Below are positions 1 to 5,118 of a DNA stretch of 5,118 bases, piece by piece. The stretch is from a virus (Duplodnaviria > Heunggongvirae > Uroviricota > Caudoviricetes): positions 1-5,118 of the IMG/VR virus record IMGVR_UViG_3300039366_000147; one strand, written 5' to 3'. The translations under genes were made by a program, and so were the position numbers. Below the pieces are notes generated by a model, which ran no database searches, had not been told where the DNA came from, and worked only from the letters and a program-made list of their open reading frames with translations. Position 1 is the first letter of the stretch; every line of letters starts with the position of its first letter.

Positions 1-644
1 GTATAGACACGAAAACCGCGCAGAAGGATAAGTTCGGCGCGGGTAAGAACGGTTTTACCCGTGGTAACCCCCAGACTGGCACGCCTGCCACCGATCTGGA
101 TGATGACTACTTTGATATGTTGCAGGAAGAACTCTGCAGCGTGGTGGAGGCATCCGGTGCCAGCCTGGAGAAGGCGCGGCACGACCAGTTGCTTACCGCG
201 CTTCGTGCGCTGCTGTTAAGCCGCAAGAATCCGTTTGGCGATATCAAATCGGATGGCACGGTGAAAACAGCTCTCGAAAACCTTGGTTTGGGAGAAGCGG
301 CGAAAAGGGATGTGGGTACAGGAGAAAATCAGATACCGGATATGTCAGCCTGGAAAAGAAATCCGAGTTCTAATCGCTGGAGAAAATTGCCTGATGGAAC
401 CATCATTCAAATGGGAATATCAGCATCAGGGCCATTAGGCTCACCTGTAAATATCACCCTGCCGATATCTTTCAGCAATACCAATTATTGTGTTGTTGCA
501 TCGTACGATAATGCACGGTCAGGTGTGTCAACAATGGTTAGTTTTGCAGCATTACCTGTTTCACCATCGCAATTTTCCCTGATGTCATCTGTGACTGAGC
601 AAGGAATAAATCCTTTTGCTTACTGGATTGCTTTTGGAGATTGA
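1..644 (+). CDS. Phage tail fibre protein, distal portion (5' end outside window; codons in phase from nt 3); the part after the crossover site is variable cassette 1
   Basis: Frame is open from the window edge to TGA at 642..644. It sits 3 nt upstream of a tail-fibre-assembly gene (GGAGA at 637..641, ATG at 648). The left crossover site lies in frame and encodes ENLGLGE. The gene-order logic is that of Mu S-U and e14 stf-tfa. Confidence 0.8.
271..296. repeat. Left crossover site of the invertible segment (gix/pix/hix-like, 26 bp)
   Basis: CTCTCGAAAACC-TT-GGTTTGGGAGAA. It matches the reverse complement of 2129..2154 at 21 of 26 positions, including a perfect 14-bp run (283..296 against 2129..2142). 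It has the AAACC-NN-GGTTT architecture I recall for Din-family sites. Confidence 0.7.
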
Positions 645-647
645 TAA

Positions 648-1067
648 ATGGACAGATACTTCTATTCACAAAAAGAAAATGGTTTTTTTACCGATTTAAA
701 TAAAGCACCTTCAGATGCTGTTGAGATAACCACGGATGAATGGCTATCACTACTGGATGGTCAGGATAATGGCATGAAAATAGTCAGCAATCAGGAGGGA
801 TATCCGGTTTTGACAGAGCAACCACCTTTATCAAAAGAAAACCTTATTGCATTGGCAGAGTTGAAAAAAGGAAAACTTATTAATGAAGCCAACGAGCACA
901 TGAACAGCAGGCAATGGCCTGGTAAAGCGGCTATTGGTCGTCTGAAAGGTGAGGAACTGGCGCAATATAATTTGTGGCTGGATTATCTGGACGCACTGGA
1001 GCTGGTCGATACTTCCAGTGCGCCAGATATTGAATGGCCTACGCCTCCGGCAGTTCAGGCCAGATGA
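648..1067 (+). CDS. Tail fibre assembly protein (Tfa/U-like chaperone)
   Basis: 139-aa ORF with the C-terminal motif DTSSAPDIEWP that I recognise from Tfa proteins. RBS GGAGA lies 6 nt upstream, directly coupled to the fibre gene. Confidence 0.8.
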   Translation: MDRYFYSQKENGFFTDLNKAPSDAVEITTDEWLSLLDGQDNGMKIVSNQEGYPVLTEQPPLSKENLIALAELKKGKLINEANEHMNSRQWPGKAAIGRLKGEELAQYNLWLDYLDALELVDTSSAPDIEWPTPPAVQAR

Positions 1068-1641
1068 TATCCGGCGCGGTGCTGGTATCTGTTACCGTCA
1101 CCGCGTCAATGTAATCCAGCACGGCGTTAAGTCGGGTTGTTTCTGCCTGCGTCAACTTCCGTCCGGCCTGCAATTTCAGTTGAATCAGACTAATGGAAGC
1201 CATTGCAGTATCAATCAGTGACTGACGTTGTGCTTCTGCCGCGTCTACTGCGGCGCTATGCTGTGCCTCGGTATCCGTCACCCATTTCTCACCATCCCAT
1301 TTATCGTATGGCGTTAACGGGGCGATAGTGGTTGTATTATCAGGGTAATCACCCGGAACTGTGATTTCTTTTGATTCTCCTGTTTCGGTGCTAAAGACGA
1401 TTTCACCGCGATGGTCTGGCACATATTCCCATGAGTTAAAATCTGCAGATCGGCAGATTGCATAACCAGCTTTGTATGCGCCTGGGGCATCTAAACAGGA
1501 ATATGCCGGAATGCCGACACCAATAGCAAGATATTCAGTTGAAGCTGAAATATATTCCCGACTCATGACATCAAAGTTATAAACAGTAATTTCTCCTGCC
1601 ATAGTGGCAATTAATTCACTGTTTAATTCTGCGTTATTCAT
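1039..1641 (-). CDS. Tail fibre assembly protein, second copy, for the alternative cassette
   Basis: 200-aa ORF ending in DTSTAPDIIWPELPEA, the same Tfa C-terminal motif. Its ATG (1641..1639) overlaps the stop of the upstream - strand fibre cassette by 1 nt. Its 3' end overlaps the + strand tfa by 29 nt. Confidence 0.8.
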   Translation of the reverse strand: MNNAELNSELIATMAGEITVYNFDVMSREYISASTEYLAIGVGIPAYSCLDAPGAYKAGYAICRSADFNSWEYVPDHRGEIVFSTETGESKEITVPGDYPDNTTTIAPLTPYDKWDGEKWVTDTEAQHSAAVDAAEAQRQSLIDTAMASISLIQLKLQAGRKLTQAETTRLNAVLDYIDAVTVTDTSTAPDIIWPELPEA

Positions 1642-2141
1642 TATGCAGCCCTCACGATATAGTTAAATGCAATATTCCGTGGACGGGTTTCATTTATCCC
1701 ATATGCTGTTGTTCTCTGATTCCCGACAAAATATCCATTTGGATTAGAAGATACAGAATAATCATCAAAATCAAGAGGGCTATCAGCACCCGGCGTCAGG
1801 CTTGCAATATATCCTCTTCCCATAACTTCTGATGCTGGTATTTCTTTTGTACGATAATCACTAACTCTGAAGAGCTGCCCTTGGTGGGTGTGTGATTCCA
1901 CTCCTCCATTCTGAAGACTTAGCAAGGCACGTACAGCATCAATACCACGCCCGTCATCCCAGCCACGAATAAACTCACCACGTAAATCAGGCAATTTATT
2001 TGTCGGATAAGCCTTTGCCAGTTCCGGGTATTCTTCAGCAGAAAAAGCGGCACCGTTGCATTCAGCCAGCCTGTTGGCGGAGTGGCTGAAGGCCACGGAA
2101 CAGGCACACCAACCGGTAATGCAGAGCCTTCTCCCAAACCA
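1641..2141 (-). pseudogene. Alternative tail-fibre distal cassette, promoterless, with an apparent -1 frameshift near 2060..2065
   Basis: Encodes a tail-collar-like motif (ECNGAAFSAEEYPELAKAYPTNKLPDLRGEFIRGWDDGRG) in the frame of the 189-aa ORF. The frame set by the crossover site is instead that of the 87-aa ORF (INVGLGEGSALPVGVPVPWPSATPPTGWL...), which stops at 1919. The two frames meet at TGGCTGAATGCAACGG. Confidence 0.6.
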
Positions 2142-2154
2142 ACGTTTATGAAAA
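2129..2154. repeat. Right crossover site of the invertible segment
   Basis: TTCTCCCAAACC-AA-CGTTTATGAAAA, about 55 bp upstream of the invertase ATG. It is the inverted partner of 271..296. Confidence 0.7.
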
Positions 2155-2208
2155 TGCAGAAATAACGAGCAAATGGCATCATTCCTGCTTTTGTCAGGGA
2201 GATCTACC

Positions 2209-2526
2209 ATGCTTATTGGCTATGTACGTGTGTCAACAAATGACCAGAACACAGATCTACAACGTAATGCGCTGAACTGTGCAGGATGCGAGCTGATTTT
2301 TGAAGACAAGATAAGCGGTACAAAGTCCGAAAGGCCGGGACTGAAAAAACTGCTCAGGACATTATCGGCAGGTGACACGCTGATTATCTGGAAACTGGAC
2401 TGGCTGGGATTATATAAAACCGCAGACACGTCGTATGCAAGAACGCGCTGCGGTTGGCTGGTAAAATTTTCGATAGTGCGAGTATTGAATGATTTCCAGC
2501 CGTTACAGATTTTACGTGCTAATTAG
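2209..2526 (+). pseudogene. Gin/Pin/Hin/Cin-family serine DNA invertase, truncated (family similarity ends at about codon 64)
   Basis: ATG at 2209 with GGGAGA RBS. The N-terminus MLIGYVRVSTNDQNTDLQRNAL...GDTLIIWKLD carries the catalytic-serine motif and closely matches my recollection of Pin/Gin. After WKLD (nt 2400) the frame continues 42 codons with unrelated sequence to TAG at 2524..2526. The resolvase core and helix-turn-helix are absent. Confidence 0.75.
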
Positions 2527-2732
2527 TGAACAAACCACTCGTCAGCAGACTCCCAGGTATCTTTCAGAGTCTCCTGCGGTGCGTGTAACAGAAAGCCCAT
2601 CATTGCTGGTGGCTTTTATGAGCACCTCCACATTGTCATAACGCTTACTGATGCGCCGAGTTAATTCTTTCTTTAACGCATCCACGGCACCGTTTGGCAT
2701 TTTTCTTTGGCTATGCAGATCTCAATGTACAT
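2523..2732 (-). pseudogene. DinI-family (SOS damage-inducible protein I-like) gene, apparently disrupted by two frame changes
   Basis: Three reading segments on the - strand resemble E. coli DinI as I recall it: [11 protein letters not shown], then in the -1 frame [42 protein letters not shown], then back in the first frame [15 protein letters not shown] followed by stop. The total length from ATG to TAA is 210 nt, which is in frame. Confidence 0.5.
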
Positions 2733-2737
2733 AAAAC

Positions 2738-2772
2738 CCCCTTGTTACTGTATGCGCACACAGTAACAAGGG
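2738..2772 (-). promoter_or_regulatory. Perfect 13-bp inverted repeat containing a CTGT-N8-ACAG LexA-box-like core (2748..2763); alternatively a hairpin terminator
   Basis: CCCTTGTTACTGT-(9 nt)-ACAGTAACAAGGG. It sits 5 nt upstream of the dinI-like ATG. On the - strand the stem is followed by GGTTTTAT. Confidence 0.4.
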
Positions 2773-2850
2773 AGCGTCTAAGTTGATCTTGCGGGTTGTA
2801 TAAGCTGGGATTTTTAATGGATTTTATCCTGATTATTTGGAGATAAAGTA

Positions 2851-2883
2851 CCTTAAAACCAGCATGAGAGACTGGTTTTAAGG
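2851..2883 (-). terminator. Perfect 12-bp stem, 9-nt loop hairpin downstream of the 437-aa ORF (possible terminator)
   Basis: CCTTAAAACCAG-CATGAGAGA-CTGGTTTTAAGG, about 85 nt 3' of the ORF stop on the - strand. The stem is AT-rich and there is no clean U-tract, so the assignment is weak. Confidence 0.3.
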
Positions 2884-2966: not shown

Positions 2967-4280
2967 CTAATCTATATCACTTAAAGTACCTTTAATTTCC
3001 CCTTGCTCAATATCCCCTAACCCAAGTTTACCTACTAATACATTACATTGCATGATGACTGAAACGGTCATATCTCGACCAGATACATCTTCCTCTTTAT
3101 AATGCTGTCCGCTTACATTTGCAGAAAGTTCAGCATAAAAACCATTATTAAAGTAGTATTGCTCAACAGTAATATCATCTATATTTTCAAAAATAGTGTC
3201 TGATTCTGCAATGGCACCTGAGACACCATCGCTATCAAAAGCATCAAATGGATTTTTTTCAAACTCCTCTCTGCATAACTCCGCAAGATGATCACCAGAA
3301 ATTAATTTAAATGGGATGTTGTCAAATAACATATCAAGATGATCAAAAATTAAATCTGCAGAAAAATCTTCATTGTCAGAGTTTTCTTCCAGCACTATTT
3401 GTTCAAGACGTTTGGCTAATTTGTCATCATAATAGACATATTTGACTTTGCTTAAAGTTTCATTATTGAAATTTTTGTCATCAAGAAGTTCATTAAAATC
3501 CGTATACCCAAAAAGTGAGGAGGCAATTAAACCTAATGTTTTAAGTGATACATGTATGTTGTCACTTCTGAGACTTTCATCTATTTTTAGCATGAGATAA
3601 TATGCAGATGGAAATCTATTGGATGCATGAACAGCTCTGGCTTTTGCACTATCGTTTTCAAATCTTATTTTTTCCAACTCTGCTTGTTTATTTTTTTTAT
3701 CTAGCTCAAGCTTTGATATTGATTCTTTGTTCTTTGCTGCTTGTGTTATAGCCTCTTGTTCTTCAGCTTTGCTTTTCGCTTCAATAGCCTTGACTTCCAG
3801 TCTCAAACTTCTTTGTCTTATATGTTCAAGTATTAATTTCCGTTTATCAATATCTTGCTGAACCAATTGTTCAAGAAATTGTTTGTTTGGATTAGTCCGT
3901 AATCTCTCTTTATTCAGTTCTTGTTGTTGCTTGATTTTTACTAATTCTATATCAATAGCCTGTTTATGTAGTTTCTTTTGAGATAAACTTTGTACTGTGT
4001 TAATAAAAAGAGAAAGCCATGGGAAAATAAATAAGTAAAAAGAGGCGGCAAGAAATGGGAAAACAAATAACTCATTCCACCCTAATATTGGCGTTCTTGA
4101 AATATACTCATAAAATAAGTTTATTCGCTCTGAAGTTTTTCCTTCACCCCAAAAAAGGAGAGATAGATGGTTCCAGTTACATATTAGCCATGAAAAAATA
4201 AAAGCGCCAACAAATGGATCGTTTATCTTGGTTTTAGCGTTTCCTGCTAACGAAGTAATTATATCATCTAAAAATTTCAT
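2967..4280 (-). CDS. Hypothetical protein, 437 aa: N-terminal membrane anchor, central coiled coil, acidic C-terminal domain; function unknown
   Basis: Longest ORF in the window, uninterrupted, in a visibly AT-rich block. GGTGA lies about 10 nt upstream of the ATG. Hydrophobic stretches at about residues 22-36 and 70-94, a K/E/Q-rich heptad-like region at about 100-210, and a D/E-rich C-terminal segment of about 220 aa. No family recognised. Confidence 0.75.
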   Translation of the reverse strand: MKFLDDIITSLAGNAKTKINDPFVGAFIFSWLICNWNHLSLLFWGEGKTSERINLFYEYISRTPILGWNELFVFPFLAASFYLFIFPWLSLFINTVQSLSQKKLHKQAIDIELVKIKQQQELNKERLRTNPNKQFLEQLVQQDIDKRKLILEHIRQRSLRLEVKAIEAKSKAEEQEAITQAAKNKESISKLELDKKNKQAELEKIRFENDSAKARAVHASNRFPSAYYLMLKIDESLRSDNIHVSLKTLGLIASSLFGYTDFNELLDDKNFNNETLSKVKYVYYDDKLAKRLEQIVLEENSDNEDFSADLIFDHLDMLFDNIPFKLISGDHLAELCREEFEKNPFDAFDSDGVSGAIAESDTIFENIDDITVEQYYFNNGFYAELSANVSGQHYKEEDVSGRDMTVSVIMQCNVLVGKLGLGDIEQGEIKGTLSDID

Positions 4281-4321
4281 TTTTTCAAAATCACCAATTG
4301 GTTATAATTAATATAATGGAT

Positions 4322-4349
4322 TGTGCAGTAAAATATAATTTACTGCACA
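4322..4349. promoter_or_regulatory. Perfect 11-bp inverted repeat with 6-bp AT spacer in the promoter region of the 437-aa ORF (candidate operator)
   Basis: TGTGCAGTAAA-ATATAA-TTTACTGCACA, 42-69 bp upstream of the ORF start codon. No adjacent T-tract on either strand, so it is not a terminator. Confidence 0.35.
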
Positions 4350-4992
4350 TCATTCTAGGTTTTTGCATAAAATGTTCAATTGTTTTCAAAGATAGCTCCT
4401 CAATTAATATATGACGACTTAAATATCACCATACTCTTGCTAATCATTGATTGCTTTTCAAGCGATAAACACCAAAAAATACCGTATAATATTCACTCAT
4501 TTTATCTGCGTAATCAACTCGGTCTGCAGCTGTTACACCTGAGCTTGTGAAACGTCAGAGTAATACGGTTTCTTTACGCATAGTATGCTGTTTATACAAT
4601 CTCCATGGGGAAGTTAATTGGTTATTAGGGGCACTTGTGTATAACGAACAACTAAAGATGACAAGCCATATGGTAAGTTGTATCCAGGCGGTTATTGAGA
4701 TGCTCTCTAATTATTAATGCAATGTCGACTTTGCGATATCTTCTTTCTTTGAGAATCGGGTTGCCGAATGCATGTGGTTGATCTTTGTGCTGTGTTTGTG
4801 TGGTGTATGATTTTTAATCGATTAATAATAAGAAATAATAGGGCTAAGATTGTTGTGTGTACAAATGGTTTTTGGTTACAAATACACCTACTGATCATGT
4901 TCTGCTATGCTCTGATACCTCCAAAATGTACAATCAGCGGCATGAATTTTTCTTTGTACATATGATTGTACATAATCAAAGAGACAACAATT

Positions 4993-5118
4993 ATGACAAG
5001 CCTTTTGGCCGCAGAGGTAGCGAAAAGAAGAACCTTTGCAATTATTTCTCACCCGGACGCCGGTAAGACTACCATCACCGAGAAGGTGCTGCTGTTCGGA
5101 CAGGCCATTCAGACCGCC
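4993..5118 (+). CDS. prfC: Peptide chain release factor 3 (RF3), N-terminal 42 codons; continues beyond the window
   Basis: Translation [42 protein letters not shown] contains the GTPase P-loop AGKT and matches the E. coli PrfC N-terminus apart from residues 3-8. AAAGAGA RBS lies 8 nt upstream. G+C rises sharply here. Confidence 0.9.

What the first reader, a model, noticed from the sequence alone, without database searches (positions are those of the whole stretch)
2967..4280. Orphan 437-aa membrane-anchored coiled-coil protein at the prophage-end cargo position: candidate undescribed defence or exclusion function
A single long intact ORF sits in a strongly AT-rich block between a decayed phage tail-fibre/invertase module and the core gene prfC. 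Predicted architecture is a membrane anchor (PFVGAFIFSWLICNW and ELFVFPFLAASFYLFIFPWLSLFI), a roughly 110-residue charged coiled coil, and an acidic C-terminal domain of about 220 aa. I see no Walker motif and no recognisable nuclease or protease signature. In e14 the equivalent slot next to pin holds mcrA, and cargo genes next to tail-fibre genes often encode superinfection-exclusion or abortive-infection proteins. Position and composition therefore point to a stand-alone anti-phage or exclusion gene with no family I can name.
Basis: partly seen in the sequence, partly recalled or inferred. Interest (0 to 1): 0.8.

Follow-up and report, generated by a model that had tools for sequence, protein, structure and literature searches.

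The report
Membrane-anchored candidate phage-defence gene in prophage
An intact 437-residue membrane-anchored protein at the end of an E. coli prophage belongs to a conserved, unstudied, horizontally mobile family that sits in prophage ends and defence islands in many bacteria, so it is a credible but untested anti-phage gene.

Summary
The ORF is real: 2967-4280 on the minus strand, 437 aa, in a block of 29-37% GC. It has two N-terminal hydrophobic helices, a long charged helix of about 140 residues, and an acidic C-terminal domain of about 200 residues.

Context is the main evidence. Ten of the twelve contexts examined for the full-length family are prophage ends or remnants, a transposon, a plasmid or an integrase island, often beside known defence systems; an eleventh lies beside Hachiman. 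No partner gene is conserved. Another E. coli prophage at prfC carries a reverse transcriptase plus SLATT pair in the same slot.

DefensePredictor lists this cluster as a predicted novel defence gene (log-odds 6.1), but it was never tested.

The most likely function is a stand-alone, membrane-acting abortive-infection or exclusion protein. The mechanism is inferred, not shown.

The parts
2967..4280 (-). Complete gene (437 codons plus stop) for the membrane-anchored protein, RefSeq WP_081178318.1, annotated 'hypothetical protein'
   Evidence: ORF. Identical locus annotation. Full-length homologues at 40-89% identity.
4146..4280 (-). Residues 1-45: N-terminal tail plus the first hydrophobic helix. 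Invariant residues are D21, P22, G25, F27, W31, N35, W36, L42 and G45. This is the most conserved segment of the family.
   Evidence: Invariant columns. Mean pairwise identity is 0.60 for residues 1-21 and 0.67 for 22-45. Kyte-Doolittle score is 1.2-1.3.
3996..4145 (-). Residues 46-95: a variable loop (46-70, net charge about -1) and the second, strongly hydrophobic helix (71-93, invariant P75, P87, W88)
   Evidence: Kyte-Doolittle score about 2.0. Charge counts. Invariant columns.
3567..3995 (-). Residues 96-238: long charged helical stalk with a conserved break, L-x-x-N-P-x-K-x-F, at residues 127-138 (window 3867-3902). The middle part (139-211) varies in sequence and length.
   Evidence: AlphaFold2 helices 65-129 and 135-238, pLDDT 78-89. 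Invariant L122, P131, K133, F135. Weak 3.5-residue periodicity and 40% identity in the stalk.
3309..3566 (-). Residues 239-324: first lobe of the C-terminal domain, mostly helical, with invariant F257, G258, Y259, D268 and F271
   Evidence: Domain model with pLDDT 87.6 and pTM 0.80. Invariant columns. The lobe boundary is my inference from secondary-structure elements.
2970..3308 (-). Residues 325-437: three short helices packed on a four-stranded curved antiparallel sheet, an NTF2-like/cystatin-like cone
4352..4379 (-). Promoter-like site TTGAAC-16-TAGAAT about 70 bases upstream of the ATG
   Evidence: Consensus scan. The number of such sites in the region is no higher than in shuffles, so this is weak evidence.
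2736..2883 (-). Two terminator-like hairpins downstream of the stop codon: 2883-2851, and 2775-2736 with an 18-bp stem and a T run. They separate the gene from the DinI-like pseudogene.
   Evidence: Three such sites were found against 1.3 +/- 1.3 in shuffles.
4281..5118 (+). AT-rich intergenic region plus the first 42 codons of prfC (from 4993). I read the whole stretch as part of the mobile element, not the ancestral chromosome.
   Evidence: Only 8 genomes match across the whole region. 5,424 of 5,426 E. coli genomes match somewhere in it, but most only from window ~5013 onward, at about 92.5% identity. Translation.

Best explanation
The gene is functional and horizontally mobile, and it works as a single-gene cargo. 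It encodes an inner-membrane protein with three parts.

- **N-terminal module:** a conserved two-helix module inserts in the membrane.
- **Stalk:** a long charged helix projects from it, most likely into the cytoplasm.
- **C-terminal domain:** the stalk carries a two-lobed acidic domain whose distal lobe has an NTF2-like fold.

I think it is a stand-alone anti-phage protein of the abortive-infection or exclusion type.

**Proposed mechanism (inferred, not shown)**
1. The C-terminal domain recognises a phage product or an infection-induced change.
2. The signal passes through the stalk and its conserved N-P-x-K-x-F hinge.
3. The conserved membrane module then oligomerises or rearranges and compromises inner-membrane integrity, which stops phage replication.

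**Shown:** intactness, conservation, domain layout, lack of a partner gene, mobility, and neighbourhoods rich in defence systems.

**Inferred:** topology, the sensor/effector assignment, and any phenotype.
For: 1. **Real and conserved.** Full-length homologues at 40-89% identity occur in Enterobacterales, Vibrio, Aeromonas, Pseudomonas, Pseudoalteromonas, Shewanella and Colwellia.
2. **Rare and mobile in E. coli.** It is in 8 of 5,426 complete genomes, in an AT-rich block. It is intact even where the prophage is badly decayed.
3. **Contexts of the full-length family:**
   - E. coli e14/P27-like prophage end at prfC.
   - Enterobacter lambdoid prophage end after umuDC.
   - Rahnella P2/186-like prophage next to cI, with a reverse transcriptase gene nearby.
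   - E. hormaechei P2-like prophage end after ogr.
   - P. antarctica P2-like prophage, with Shedu (SduA_C) and a RelA/SpoT protein.
   - P. umsongensis beside Hachiman HamA/HamB.
   - Vibrio type I-F3 CRISPR-associated Tn7-like transposon cargo, after type I R-M and two GmrSD/DUF262 genes.
   - The same cassette on a V. aerogenes plasmid.
   - Pseudoalteromonas, between type I R-M hsdR and DarT/Macro.
   - Aeromonas integrase island.
   - K. aerogenes prophage remnant with HicAB.
4. **Variable slot.** The same slot in another prfC prophage holds a reverse transcriptase, a SLATT protein and DinI.
5. **No conserved neighbour**, so it is a single-gene unit (same calls).
6. **Modular build.** The N-module (residues 1-215) recurs in about 2,956 clusters with other or no C-termini. 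These include small genes of unknown function in Escherichia phage EC.W1-9 and a Vibrio inovirus.
7. **Independent prediction.** DefensePredictor Table S10 lists cluster WP_081178318.1 as 'Predicted novel defense gene', mean log-odds 6.08. The strict cutoff is 4, and 45% of the 94 cloned predicted units validated (PMC13092281).
8. **Topology.** K/R counts favour the N-tail and post-TM2 segments being cytoplasmic.
Against: - No experiment exists, and the gene was not among the units cloned in PMC13092281.
- There is no similarity to any PADLOC model. The 19 PADLOC families matched by N-module relatives are mostly SMC-like or otherwise unrelated proteins, each hit by few members, and I read them as coiled-coil noise.
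- In V. vulnificus the gene sits at one fixed chromosomal site between an RNase T-like gene and a CBAH gene. It is on many contigs there, with no visible mobile element or defence neighbour.
- An N-module relative in a genome with SusC/SusD-type polysaccharide-utilisation genes (probably Bacteroidota) lies among those genes.
- The first hydrophobic helix is only marginally hydrophobic and has conserved polar residues. The topology, and so the side of the membrane on which the C-terminal domain sits, is not settled.
- DefensePredictor uses genomic neighbours, so it is not fully independent of my context argument.
Confidence: 0.5

Rival explanations
1. It is a superinfection-exclusion protein. 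It sits in the inner membrane and blocks genome entry or an early membrane step of incoming phages, without killing the cell. It would serve the resident prophage or element.
For: It is a prophage-end cargo gene next to tail-fibre genes in E. coli and Enterobacter. N-module-only relatives occur as small genes of unknown function in a tailed phage and an inovirus. It has a membrane anchor and no enzymatic motif.
Against: Many family members lie outside prophages, in R-M, DarTG or Hachiman islands, on a transposon or on a plasmid. Charge distribution favours a cytoplasmic C-terminal domain rather than a periplasmic one. A profile comparison finds no similarity to lambda SieB or RexB.
Confidence: 0.15
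2. It is a second-line guard linked to restriction-modification, following the logic of PrrC. It would detect phage inhibition of a type I R-M or GmrSD system and then act on the membrane.
For: In Vibrio (transposon cargo and plasmid) and in Pseudoalteromonas the gene follows the last R-M or GmrSD gene, on the same strand, after only 20-66 bases. In Aeromonas it follows a large helicase after 34 bases.
Against: In E. coli, Enterobacter, Rahnella, Klebsiella, Pseudomonas and V. vulnificus there is no adjacent R-M system. The Vibrio cases share one cassette, so they are not independent events. Defence genes cluster for reasons other than functional coupling.
Confidence: 0.1
3. It has a function unrelated to defence. 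It could be a membrane-tethered scaffold or an envelope or stress protein that benefits the host or the element in some other way. This includes the TolA-like role that some database names suggest.
Against: There is no TolA, TonB or VirB8 hit in Pfam or NCBIfam at E <= 1, and none in PDB sequence search. No context has tol or type IV secretion genes. The gene is in 0.15% of E. coli genomes, which does not fit a housekeeping role. Ten of twelve contexts are mobile elements, and an eleventh adjoins a defence system.
Confidence: 0.2
4. It is a chance or decaying ORF in AT-rich junk left at the end of a degraded prophage.
For: The neighbouring genes are pseudogenes: the pin remnant and the frameshifted DinI-like gene.
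Against: Full-length conservation across at least eight genera, with 27 invariant residues. A confident AlphaFold2 domain model, pLDDT 87.6.
Confidence: 0.01

Closest known systems
DefensePredictor cluster WP_081178318.1 ('Predicted novel defense gene', Table S10 of PMC13092281)
   Same: It is the same protein cluster. The RefSeq accession of this gene is the cluster id in that table. The listed member is 437 aa, with mean log-odds 6.08.
   Different: It is only a machine-learning score in a supplementary list of thousands. The cluster was not cloned, named or analysed there. The domain anatomy, family range and contexts given here are new.
PHROG families 4780, 22645, 13369 and 35327 (phage proteins of unknown function)
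   Same: They share the N-terminal membrane module and the start of the stalk. E-values run from 1e-14 to 4e-7 over residues about 2-215.
   Different: Those profiles are 275-348 positions long and match only the first ~200 of them, to residues 2-215 of this protein. None matches the C-terminal domain, and no function is recorded for any of them.
Membrane-acting abortive-infection and effector proteins, for example SLATT-domain effectors, lambda RexB, SieB, and the two-TM effectors of CBASS and retron systems
   Same: Small transmembrane modules encoded in prophages or defence islands. The SLATT plus reverse-transcriptase pair occupies the same slot in a sister prophage.
   Different: There is no detectable sequence or profile similarity (Pfam; hhalign). 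This protein carries its own large C-terminal domain and has no partner gene.
TolA (the name some homologues carry in databases)
   Same: An N-terminal membrane anchor, a long charged helix and a globular C-terminus.
   Different: There is no TolA or TonB_C profile hit. The C-terminus has an NTF2-like fold rather than TolA domain III. There are two hydrophobic helices, with the basic cluster after the second one. No context has a tolQRA-tolB-pal operon. The name is an annotation artefact of the charged helix.
VirB8/TraM/DotI periplasmic domains and other NTF2-like domains (CaMKII hub, Tim44 C-terminal domain)
   Different: Identity is 4-14%. No context has type IV secretion genes. The domain is predicted to be cytoplasmic. 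The NTF2-like fold is very common, so this is fold-level resemblance only.

Membership tests
TolA (cell envelope integrity protein) | Sequence match to TolA or TolA_C/TonB_C profiles | tested here: not met
   No such hit in Pfam or NCBIfam at E <= 1. No PDB sequence hit with the family profile.
TolA (cell envelope integrity protein) | Encoded in a tolQ-tolR-tolA-tolB-pal operon | tested here: not met
   Neighbours are prophage, R-M or other island genes in all twelve contexts.
TolA (cell envelope integrity protein) | C-terminal domain III fold | tested here: not met
Known and candidate defence systems in PADLOC-DB v2.0.0 | Match to any of the 5,027 defence protein models | tested here: not met
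   No families at E <= 1 for this protein. The 66 N-module relatives matched 19 families, mostly SMC-like (LmuB, JetC), each hit by few members; I read these as coiled-coil noise.
DefensePredictor predicted-defence cluster WP_081178318.1 | Same protein cluster | tested here: met
   The accession from RefSeq annotation of the identical locus equals the cluster_id in Table S10.
DefensePredictor predicted-defence cluster WP_081178318.1 | Experimental protection against phage | not testable with these tools
   Neither accession occurs in Table S6 (screened units) or S8 (validated proteins), and the opening residues MKFLDDI occur in none of the 12 supplementary files.
PHROG 4780-type N-terminal membrane module | Profile match over the module | tested here: met
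   phrog_4780 at E 9.9e-15, residues 5-215, and three further PHROGs. 2,956 representative clusters at E <= 1e-3, most matching residues about 1-215 only.
SLATT, SieB and RexB membrane effectors | Sequence or profile similarity | tested here: not met
   No Pfam hit. hhalign of the N-module profile against a SLATT protein, lambda SieB and lambda RexB gave probability <= 2.6%. Each target was a single sequence, so sensitivity was limited.
VirB8/TraM/DotI-like type IV secretion components | NTF2-like domain | tested here: met
VirB8/TraM/DotI-like type IV secretion components | Encoded with other type IV secretion genes, with detectable sequence homology | tested here: not met
   No context has such genes. 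Identity is 3-9%. No Pfam VirB8 hit.
Abortive-infection or exclusion proteins acting at the membrane (functional class) | Located on mobile elements or in defence islands | tested here: met
   Ten of twelve contexts are mobile elements and an eleventh adjoins Hachiman. Five contexts have an adjacent recognised defence system: Hachiman, R-M/GmrSD in three settings, one of them with DarTG, and Shedu.
Abortive-infection or exclusion proteins acting at the membrane (functional class) | Transmembrane segment(s) | tested here: inconclusive
   Helix 71-93 is clearly hydrophobic (Kyte-Doolittle about 2.0). Helix 23-45 is marginal (1.2-1.4) with conserved polar residues. No dedicated topology predictor was available.
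Abortive-infection or exclusion proteins acting at the membrane (functional class) | Phage-triggered growth arrest, membrane depolarisation or block of infection | not testable with these tools
   Needs experiments.

The most novel reading that the evidence does not exclude
The conserved N-terminal module, with its signature R-x-(K/x)-(N/D)-P-x-x-G-x-F-x-x-S-W-x-x-x-N-W followed by a second helix containing P...P-W, could be a widespread and undescribed membrane effector domain. It occurs in about 3,000 clusters at 50% identity, in Proteobacteria, probably Bacteroidota, tailed phages and inoviruses. It would be fused through a helical stalk to interchangeable sensor domains. On this reading the 437-aa family is the first recognisable member of a new class of single-chain, membrane-tethered immune sensors, with an NTF2-like sensing lobe.
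Probability: 0.3. Interest if true: 0.7.

Novelty: new variant of a known kind. Interest (0 to 1): 0.5.

Why it matters
If the protein defends against phage, it adds a single-gene system with no detectable similarity to any catalogued defence family. It also points to a large, uncharacterised membrane module that phages, prophages, transposons and plasmids all carry.

The work gives a concrete test case for a machine-learning prediction that nobody has followed up. The gene is small and self-contained, comes from E. coli, and has clear conserved residues to mutate.

The locus also shows that the prophage end at prfC is a slot where different defence cargos are swapped. This gene occupies it in one prophage, and a reverse transcriptase plus SLATT pair occupies it in another.

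For annotation, the 'TolA' name attached to many homologues should be dropped.

Tried and rejected
- **Profile scans.** Pfam, NCBIfam and PADLOC scans of the protein gave nothing usable. The weak precomputed PF28006 'HpsJ' flag on some homologues could not be examined, because that model is not in the Pfam copy. I treat it as a membrane/helix artefact.
- **Other structure libraries.** Foldseek against BFVD viral structures gave no hit at E <= 1e-3. The afdb50 library was not available.
- **PDB sequence search** with the family profile gave no hit.
- **N-module relatives.** Scanning 66 of them against Pfam and PADLOC gave only scattered hits to unrelated, mostly long-helix families (Golgin, UPF0242, LmuB, JetC), each matched by few members.
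- **Known membrane effectors.** hhalign against a SLATT protein, lambda SieB and RexB was negative.
- **Relatives with other C-termini.** Homologue search from P0210 found 3 proteins on short contigs. The profile search with A3 was swamped by the full-length family. The one relative with usable context lay among SusC/SusD-type genes, with no defence neighbours.
- **Window-level checks.** Rfam found nothing in the window. The promoter scan was no better than shuffles.
- **Literature.** A full-text search for the accession found no paper.
- **Not run.** I did not run the costly genome-contig scan, because twelve independent contexts were already in hand.
Full report

Yes. The window has a single ATG-initiated ORF at 2967..4280 on the minus strand. 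GC content is 0.29-0.37 between about 2700 and 4500, against 0.42-0.56 in the tail-fibre part of the window.

The identical locus in E. coli APEC E123 is annotated 'hypothetical protein', WP_081178318.1. On one side lie tail-fibre and assembly genes, a truncated recombinase (pin remnant) and a frameshifted DinI-like gene. On the other side lies prfC, which starts at window 4993.

Two terminator-like hairpins follow the stop codon, and a weak promoter-like site precedes the start. Rfam finds no RNA in the window.

**2. Anatomy**

- **Hydrophobic helices.** Hydropathy shows a marginal segment at 23-45 and a strong one at 71-93. The last 222 residues carry net charge -27.
- **Full-length model.** AlphaFold2 with a 42-sequence alignment (pLDDT 79) gives short helices at 22-62 and very long helices at 65-129 and 135-238. 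These are followed by an alpha/beta domain ending in four long antiparallel strands.
- **The long helix.** It has little heptad periodicity, and its middle third varies in sequence and length. 'Long charged stalk' is safer than 'coiled coil'.
- **Conserved parts.** The most conserved segments are the first hydrophobic helix, with invariant D21, P22, G25, F27, W31, N35 and W36. Next come a break in the stalk at L-x-x-N-P-x-K-x-F (127-138) and the junction motif A-S-x-R-F-P-S-A-Y.
- **Likely topology.** K/R counts are higher in the N-tail and just after the second helix than in the loop between the helices. This holds in the family and in distant relatives. It favours an N-in/C-in hairpin with the stalk and C-terminal domain in the cytoplasm. 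No dedicated topology predictor was available, and the first helix is only marginally hydrophobic, so this remains an inference.

**3. Not an orphan**

A search of 5.8 billion proteins found more than 120 clusters (at 90% identity) of full-length homologues, at 40-89% identity. They come from Escherichia, Enterobacter, Citrobacter, Klebsiella, Yersinia, Rahnella, Pectobacterium, Providencia, Serratia, Vibrio, Aliivibrio, Aeromonas, Pseudomonas, Pseudoalteromonas, Shewanella, Colwellia and Psychromonas. All are named 'hypothetical' or, wrongly, 'TolA'.

An exhaustive HMMER search of 1.84 billion representatives found 2,956 clusters at E <= 1e-3. About 60 are full-length. Most of the rest are proteins of 200-350 residues that share only residues about 1-215 and carry different or no C-terminal domains. 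Four PHROG families of unknown function match the same module.

N-module-only relatives occur in two phages. One is a small opposite-strand gene between the terminase and portal genes of Escherichia phage EC.W1-9. The other is in a Vibrio inovirus.

Pfam, NCBIfam, PADLOC and PDB sequence searches give no family for the protein or for the module. Profile comparison with a SLATT protein, lambda SieB and lambda RexB is negative.

**4. Where the family lives**

In E. coli the gene is rare, in 8 of 5,426 complete genomes. In all three loci examined it is at the prfC prophage end. One of these is a strain whose prophage is riddled with pseudogenes and an IS element while this gene stays intact.

Contexts in other bacteria:

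| Organism | Context |
|---|---|
| Enterobacter | Lambdoid prophage end, after the invertase and umuDC |
| Rahnella | P2/186-like prophage beside cI, with a reverse transcriptase gene nearby |
| E. hormaechei | P2-like prophage end after ogr |
| P. antarctica | P2-like prophage region with Shedu and a RelA/SpoT protein |
| P. umsongensis | Beside Hachiman |
| Vibrio, including V. cholerae | Last cargo gene before tniQ in type I-F3 CRISPR-associated Tn7-like transposons, after type I R-M and two GmrSD/DUF262 genes |
| V. aerogenes | The same cassette on a plasmid |
| Pseudoalteromonas | Between hsdR and DarT/Macro |
| Aeromonas | Integrase island, after a large helicase |
| K. aerogenes | Prophage remnant with HicAB |

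In IMG/VR, 13 viral contigs carry a homologue, and 11 have it within about 3 kb of a contig end.

No neighbour is conserved, so it is a single-gene unit.

There are two exceptions. V. vulnificus has a fixed chromosomal site with no visible element. An N-module relative with a different C-terminus lies among SusC/SusD-type polysaccharide-utilisation genes, probably in a Bacteroidota genome.

**5. The slot itself**

Most E. coli genomes match the right end of the window only from about 5013 onward, inside prfC, and at only about 92.5% identity. A subset of 726 genomes match at 95-99%. I read this as the element supplying the promoter and first codons of prfC, with its attachment core lying beyond the window.

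In strain MLI121 a lambdoid prophage at the same site carries a reverse transcriptase, a SLATT-domain protein and an intact DinI-like gene between its tail fibres and prfC. The position is therefore a variable cargo slot that holds recognisable defence-type genes in other strains.

**6. Literature**

No paper mentions the accession in its main text. The supplement of DefensePredictor (Science 2026, PMC13092281) does list it. Table S10, sheet 'uncharacterized_clusters', has a 437-aa protein with cluster id WP_081178318.1, mean log-odds 6.08 (range 3.9-7.1), labelled 'Putative novel defense gene / Predicted novel defense gene'.

The paper's strict cutoff is a log-odds of 4, and 45% of the 94 cloned predicted units protected against phage. 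This cluster is absent from the tables of screened and validated units. It is predicted but untested. That model uses neighbouring genes, so it is not fully independent of my context evidence.

**7. Most likely mechanism**

I commit to a stand-alone, membrane-acting abortive-infection or exclusion protein. On this model the variable, acidic, two-lobed C-terminal domain senses infection. The stalk and its conserved hinge transmit the signal. The highly conserved N-module, which is reused with other C-termini, acts on the inner membrane.

Conservation, modularity, single-gene status, mobility and defence-rich neighbourhoods are shown. Topology, the sensor/effector roles and any phenotype are inferred.

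| Reading | My estimate |
|---|---|
| Best explanation as stated: membrane-acting defence or exclusion protein | about 0.5 |
| The specific membrane-disruption step within it | about 0.35 |
| Rival: non-lethal superinfection exclusion | 0.15 |
| Rival: guard of type I R-M or GmrSD, suggested by the tight linkage in Vibrio and Pseudoalteromonas | 0.1 |
| Rival: membrane role unrelated to defence | 0.2 |
| Rival: junk ORF | 0.01 |

**8. Verdict**

- 'Orphan' is wrong, and the database name 'TolA' is an artefact.
- The finding is a credible candidate defence gene with a novel domain composition that can be tested directly. It has already been flagged, but not studied, by a machine-learning screen.
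- I rate it as a new variant of a known kind, a single-protein membrane-anchored defence candidate, with interest 0.5.

Noticed in passing
window 4281-5118: Nearly all E. coli genomes (5,424 of 5,426) match this stretch, but only 8 across its whole length. Most match only from about 5013 onward, inside prfC (start 4993), at about 92.5% identity. The prophage seems to integrate into the 5' end of prfC and to supply a replacement promoter and first codons. The attachment core must lie beyond the window.
   Followed up: partly
L046 4567-6937 (E. coli MLI121, same prfC site): A lambdoid prophage at the same site carries a reverse transcriptase, a SLATT-domain protein and an intact DinI-like gene in the slot that holds the 437-aa gene here. 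This prophage end is a swap site for defence-type cargo.
   Followed up: partly
window 2523-2732 (-) and 2209-2409 (+): There is a frameshifted DinI-like pseudogene and a truncated pin-type recombinase (about the first 65 residues, then divergent sequence). The invertible tail-fibre module is no longer switchable.
   Followed up: no
window 117-2210: These are remains of an invertible tail-fibre segment. A fibre C-terminus and assembly gene lie on the plus strand (117-644, 648-1067). An alternative assembly gene and fibre C-terminus lie on the minus strand (1039-1641, 1641-2210), with the two assembly genes overlapping tail to tail.
   Followed up: no
L019, L035-L038 (Vibrio) and L056 (V. aerogenes plasmid): A cassette of hsdM-hsdS-DUF262-DUF262/GmrSD plus the 437-aa homologue, with hsdR upstream where the locus reaches far enough, occurs in two settings. 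One is the cargo of type I-F3 CRISPR-associated Tn7-like transposons, directly before tniQ. The other is an 86-kb plasmid. The homologue follows the last gene after only 20-66 bases.
   Followed up: partly
L020 4983-5588 (Escherichia phage EC.W1-9) and L021 5004-5774 (Vibrio inovirus vB_VipaK): Short proteins (201 and 256 aa) carry only the N-terminal membrane module. In EC.W1-9 the gene lies on the opposite strand, between the terminase and portal genes.
   Followed up: no
L054 (E. coli EC05): The prfC prophage is heavily decayed, with several truncated structural genes and an IS903B insertion. The 437-aa gene is nevertheless intact at 99.5% nucleotide identity, which is consistent with selection to keep it.
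   Followed up: no
L006-L009 (V. vulnificus): The homologue sits at one fixed chromosomal site, between an RNase T-like exonuclease gene and a choloylglycine-hydrolase-family gene. It is on many contigs there, with no visible mobile element. This is unlike every other context examined for the full-length family.
   Followed up: no
P0081 (uncultured Shewanella): One homologue is 545 aa, with a GntR-type helix-turn-helix at residues 475-522 after the normal C-terminus. It could be a true fusion or a missed stop or gene-call error.
   Followed up: no
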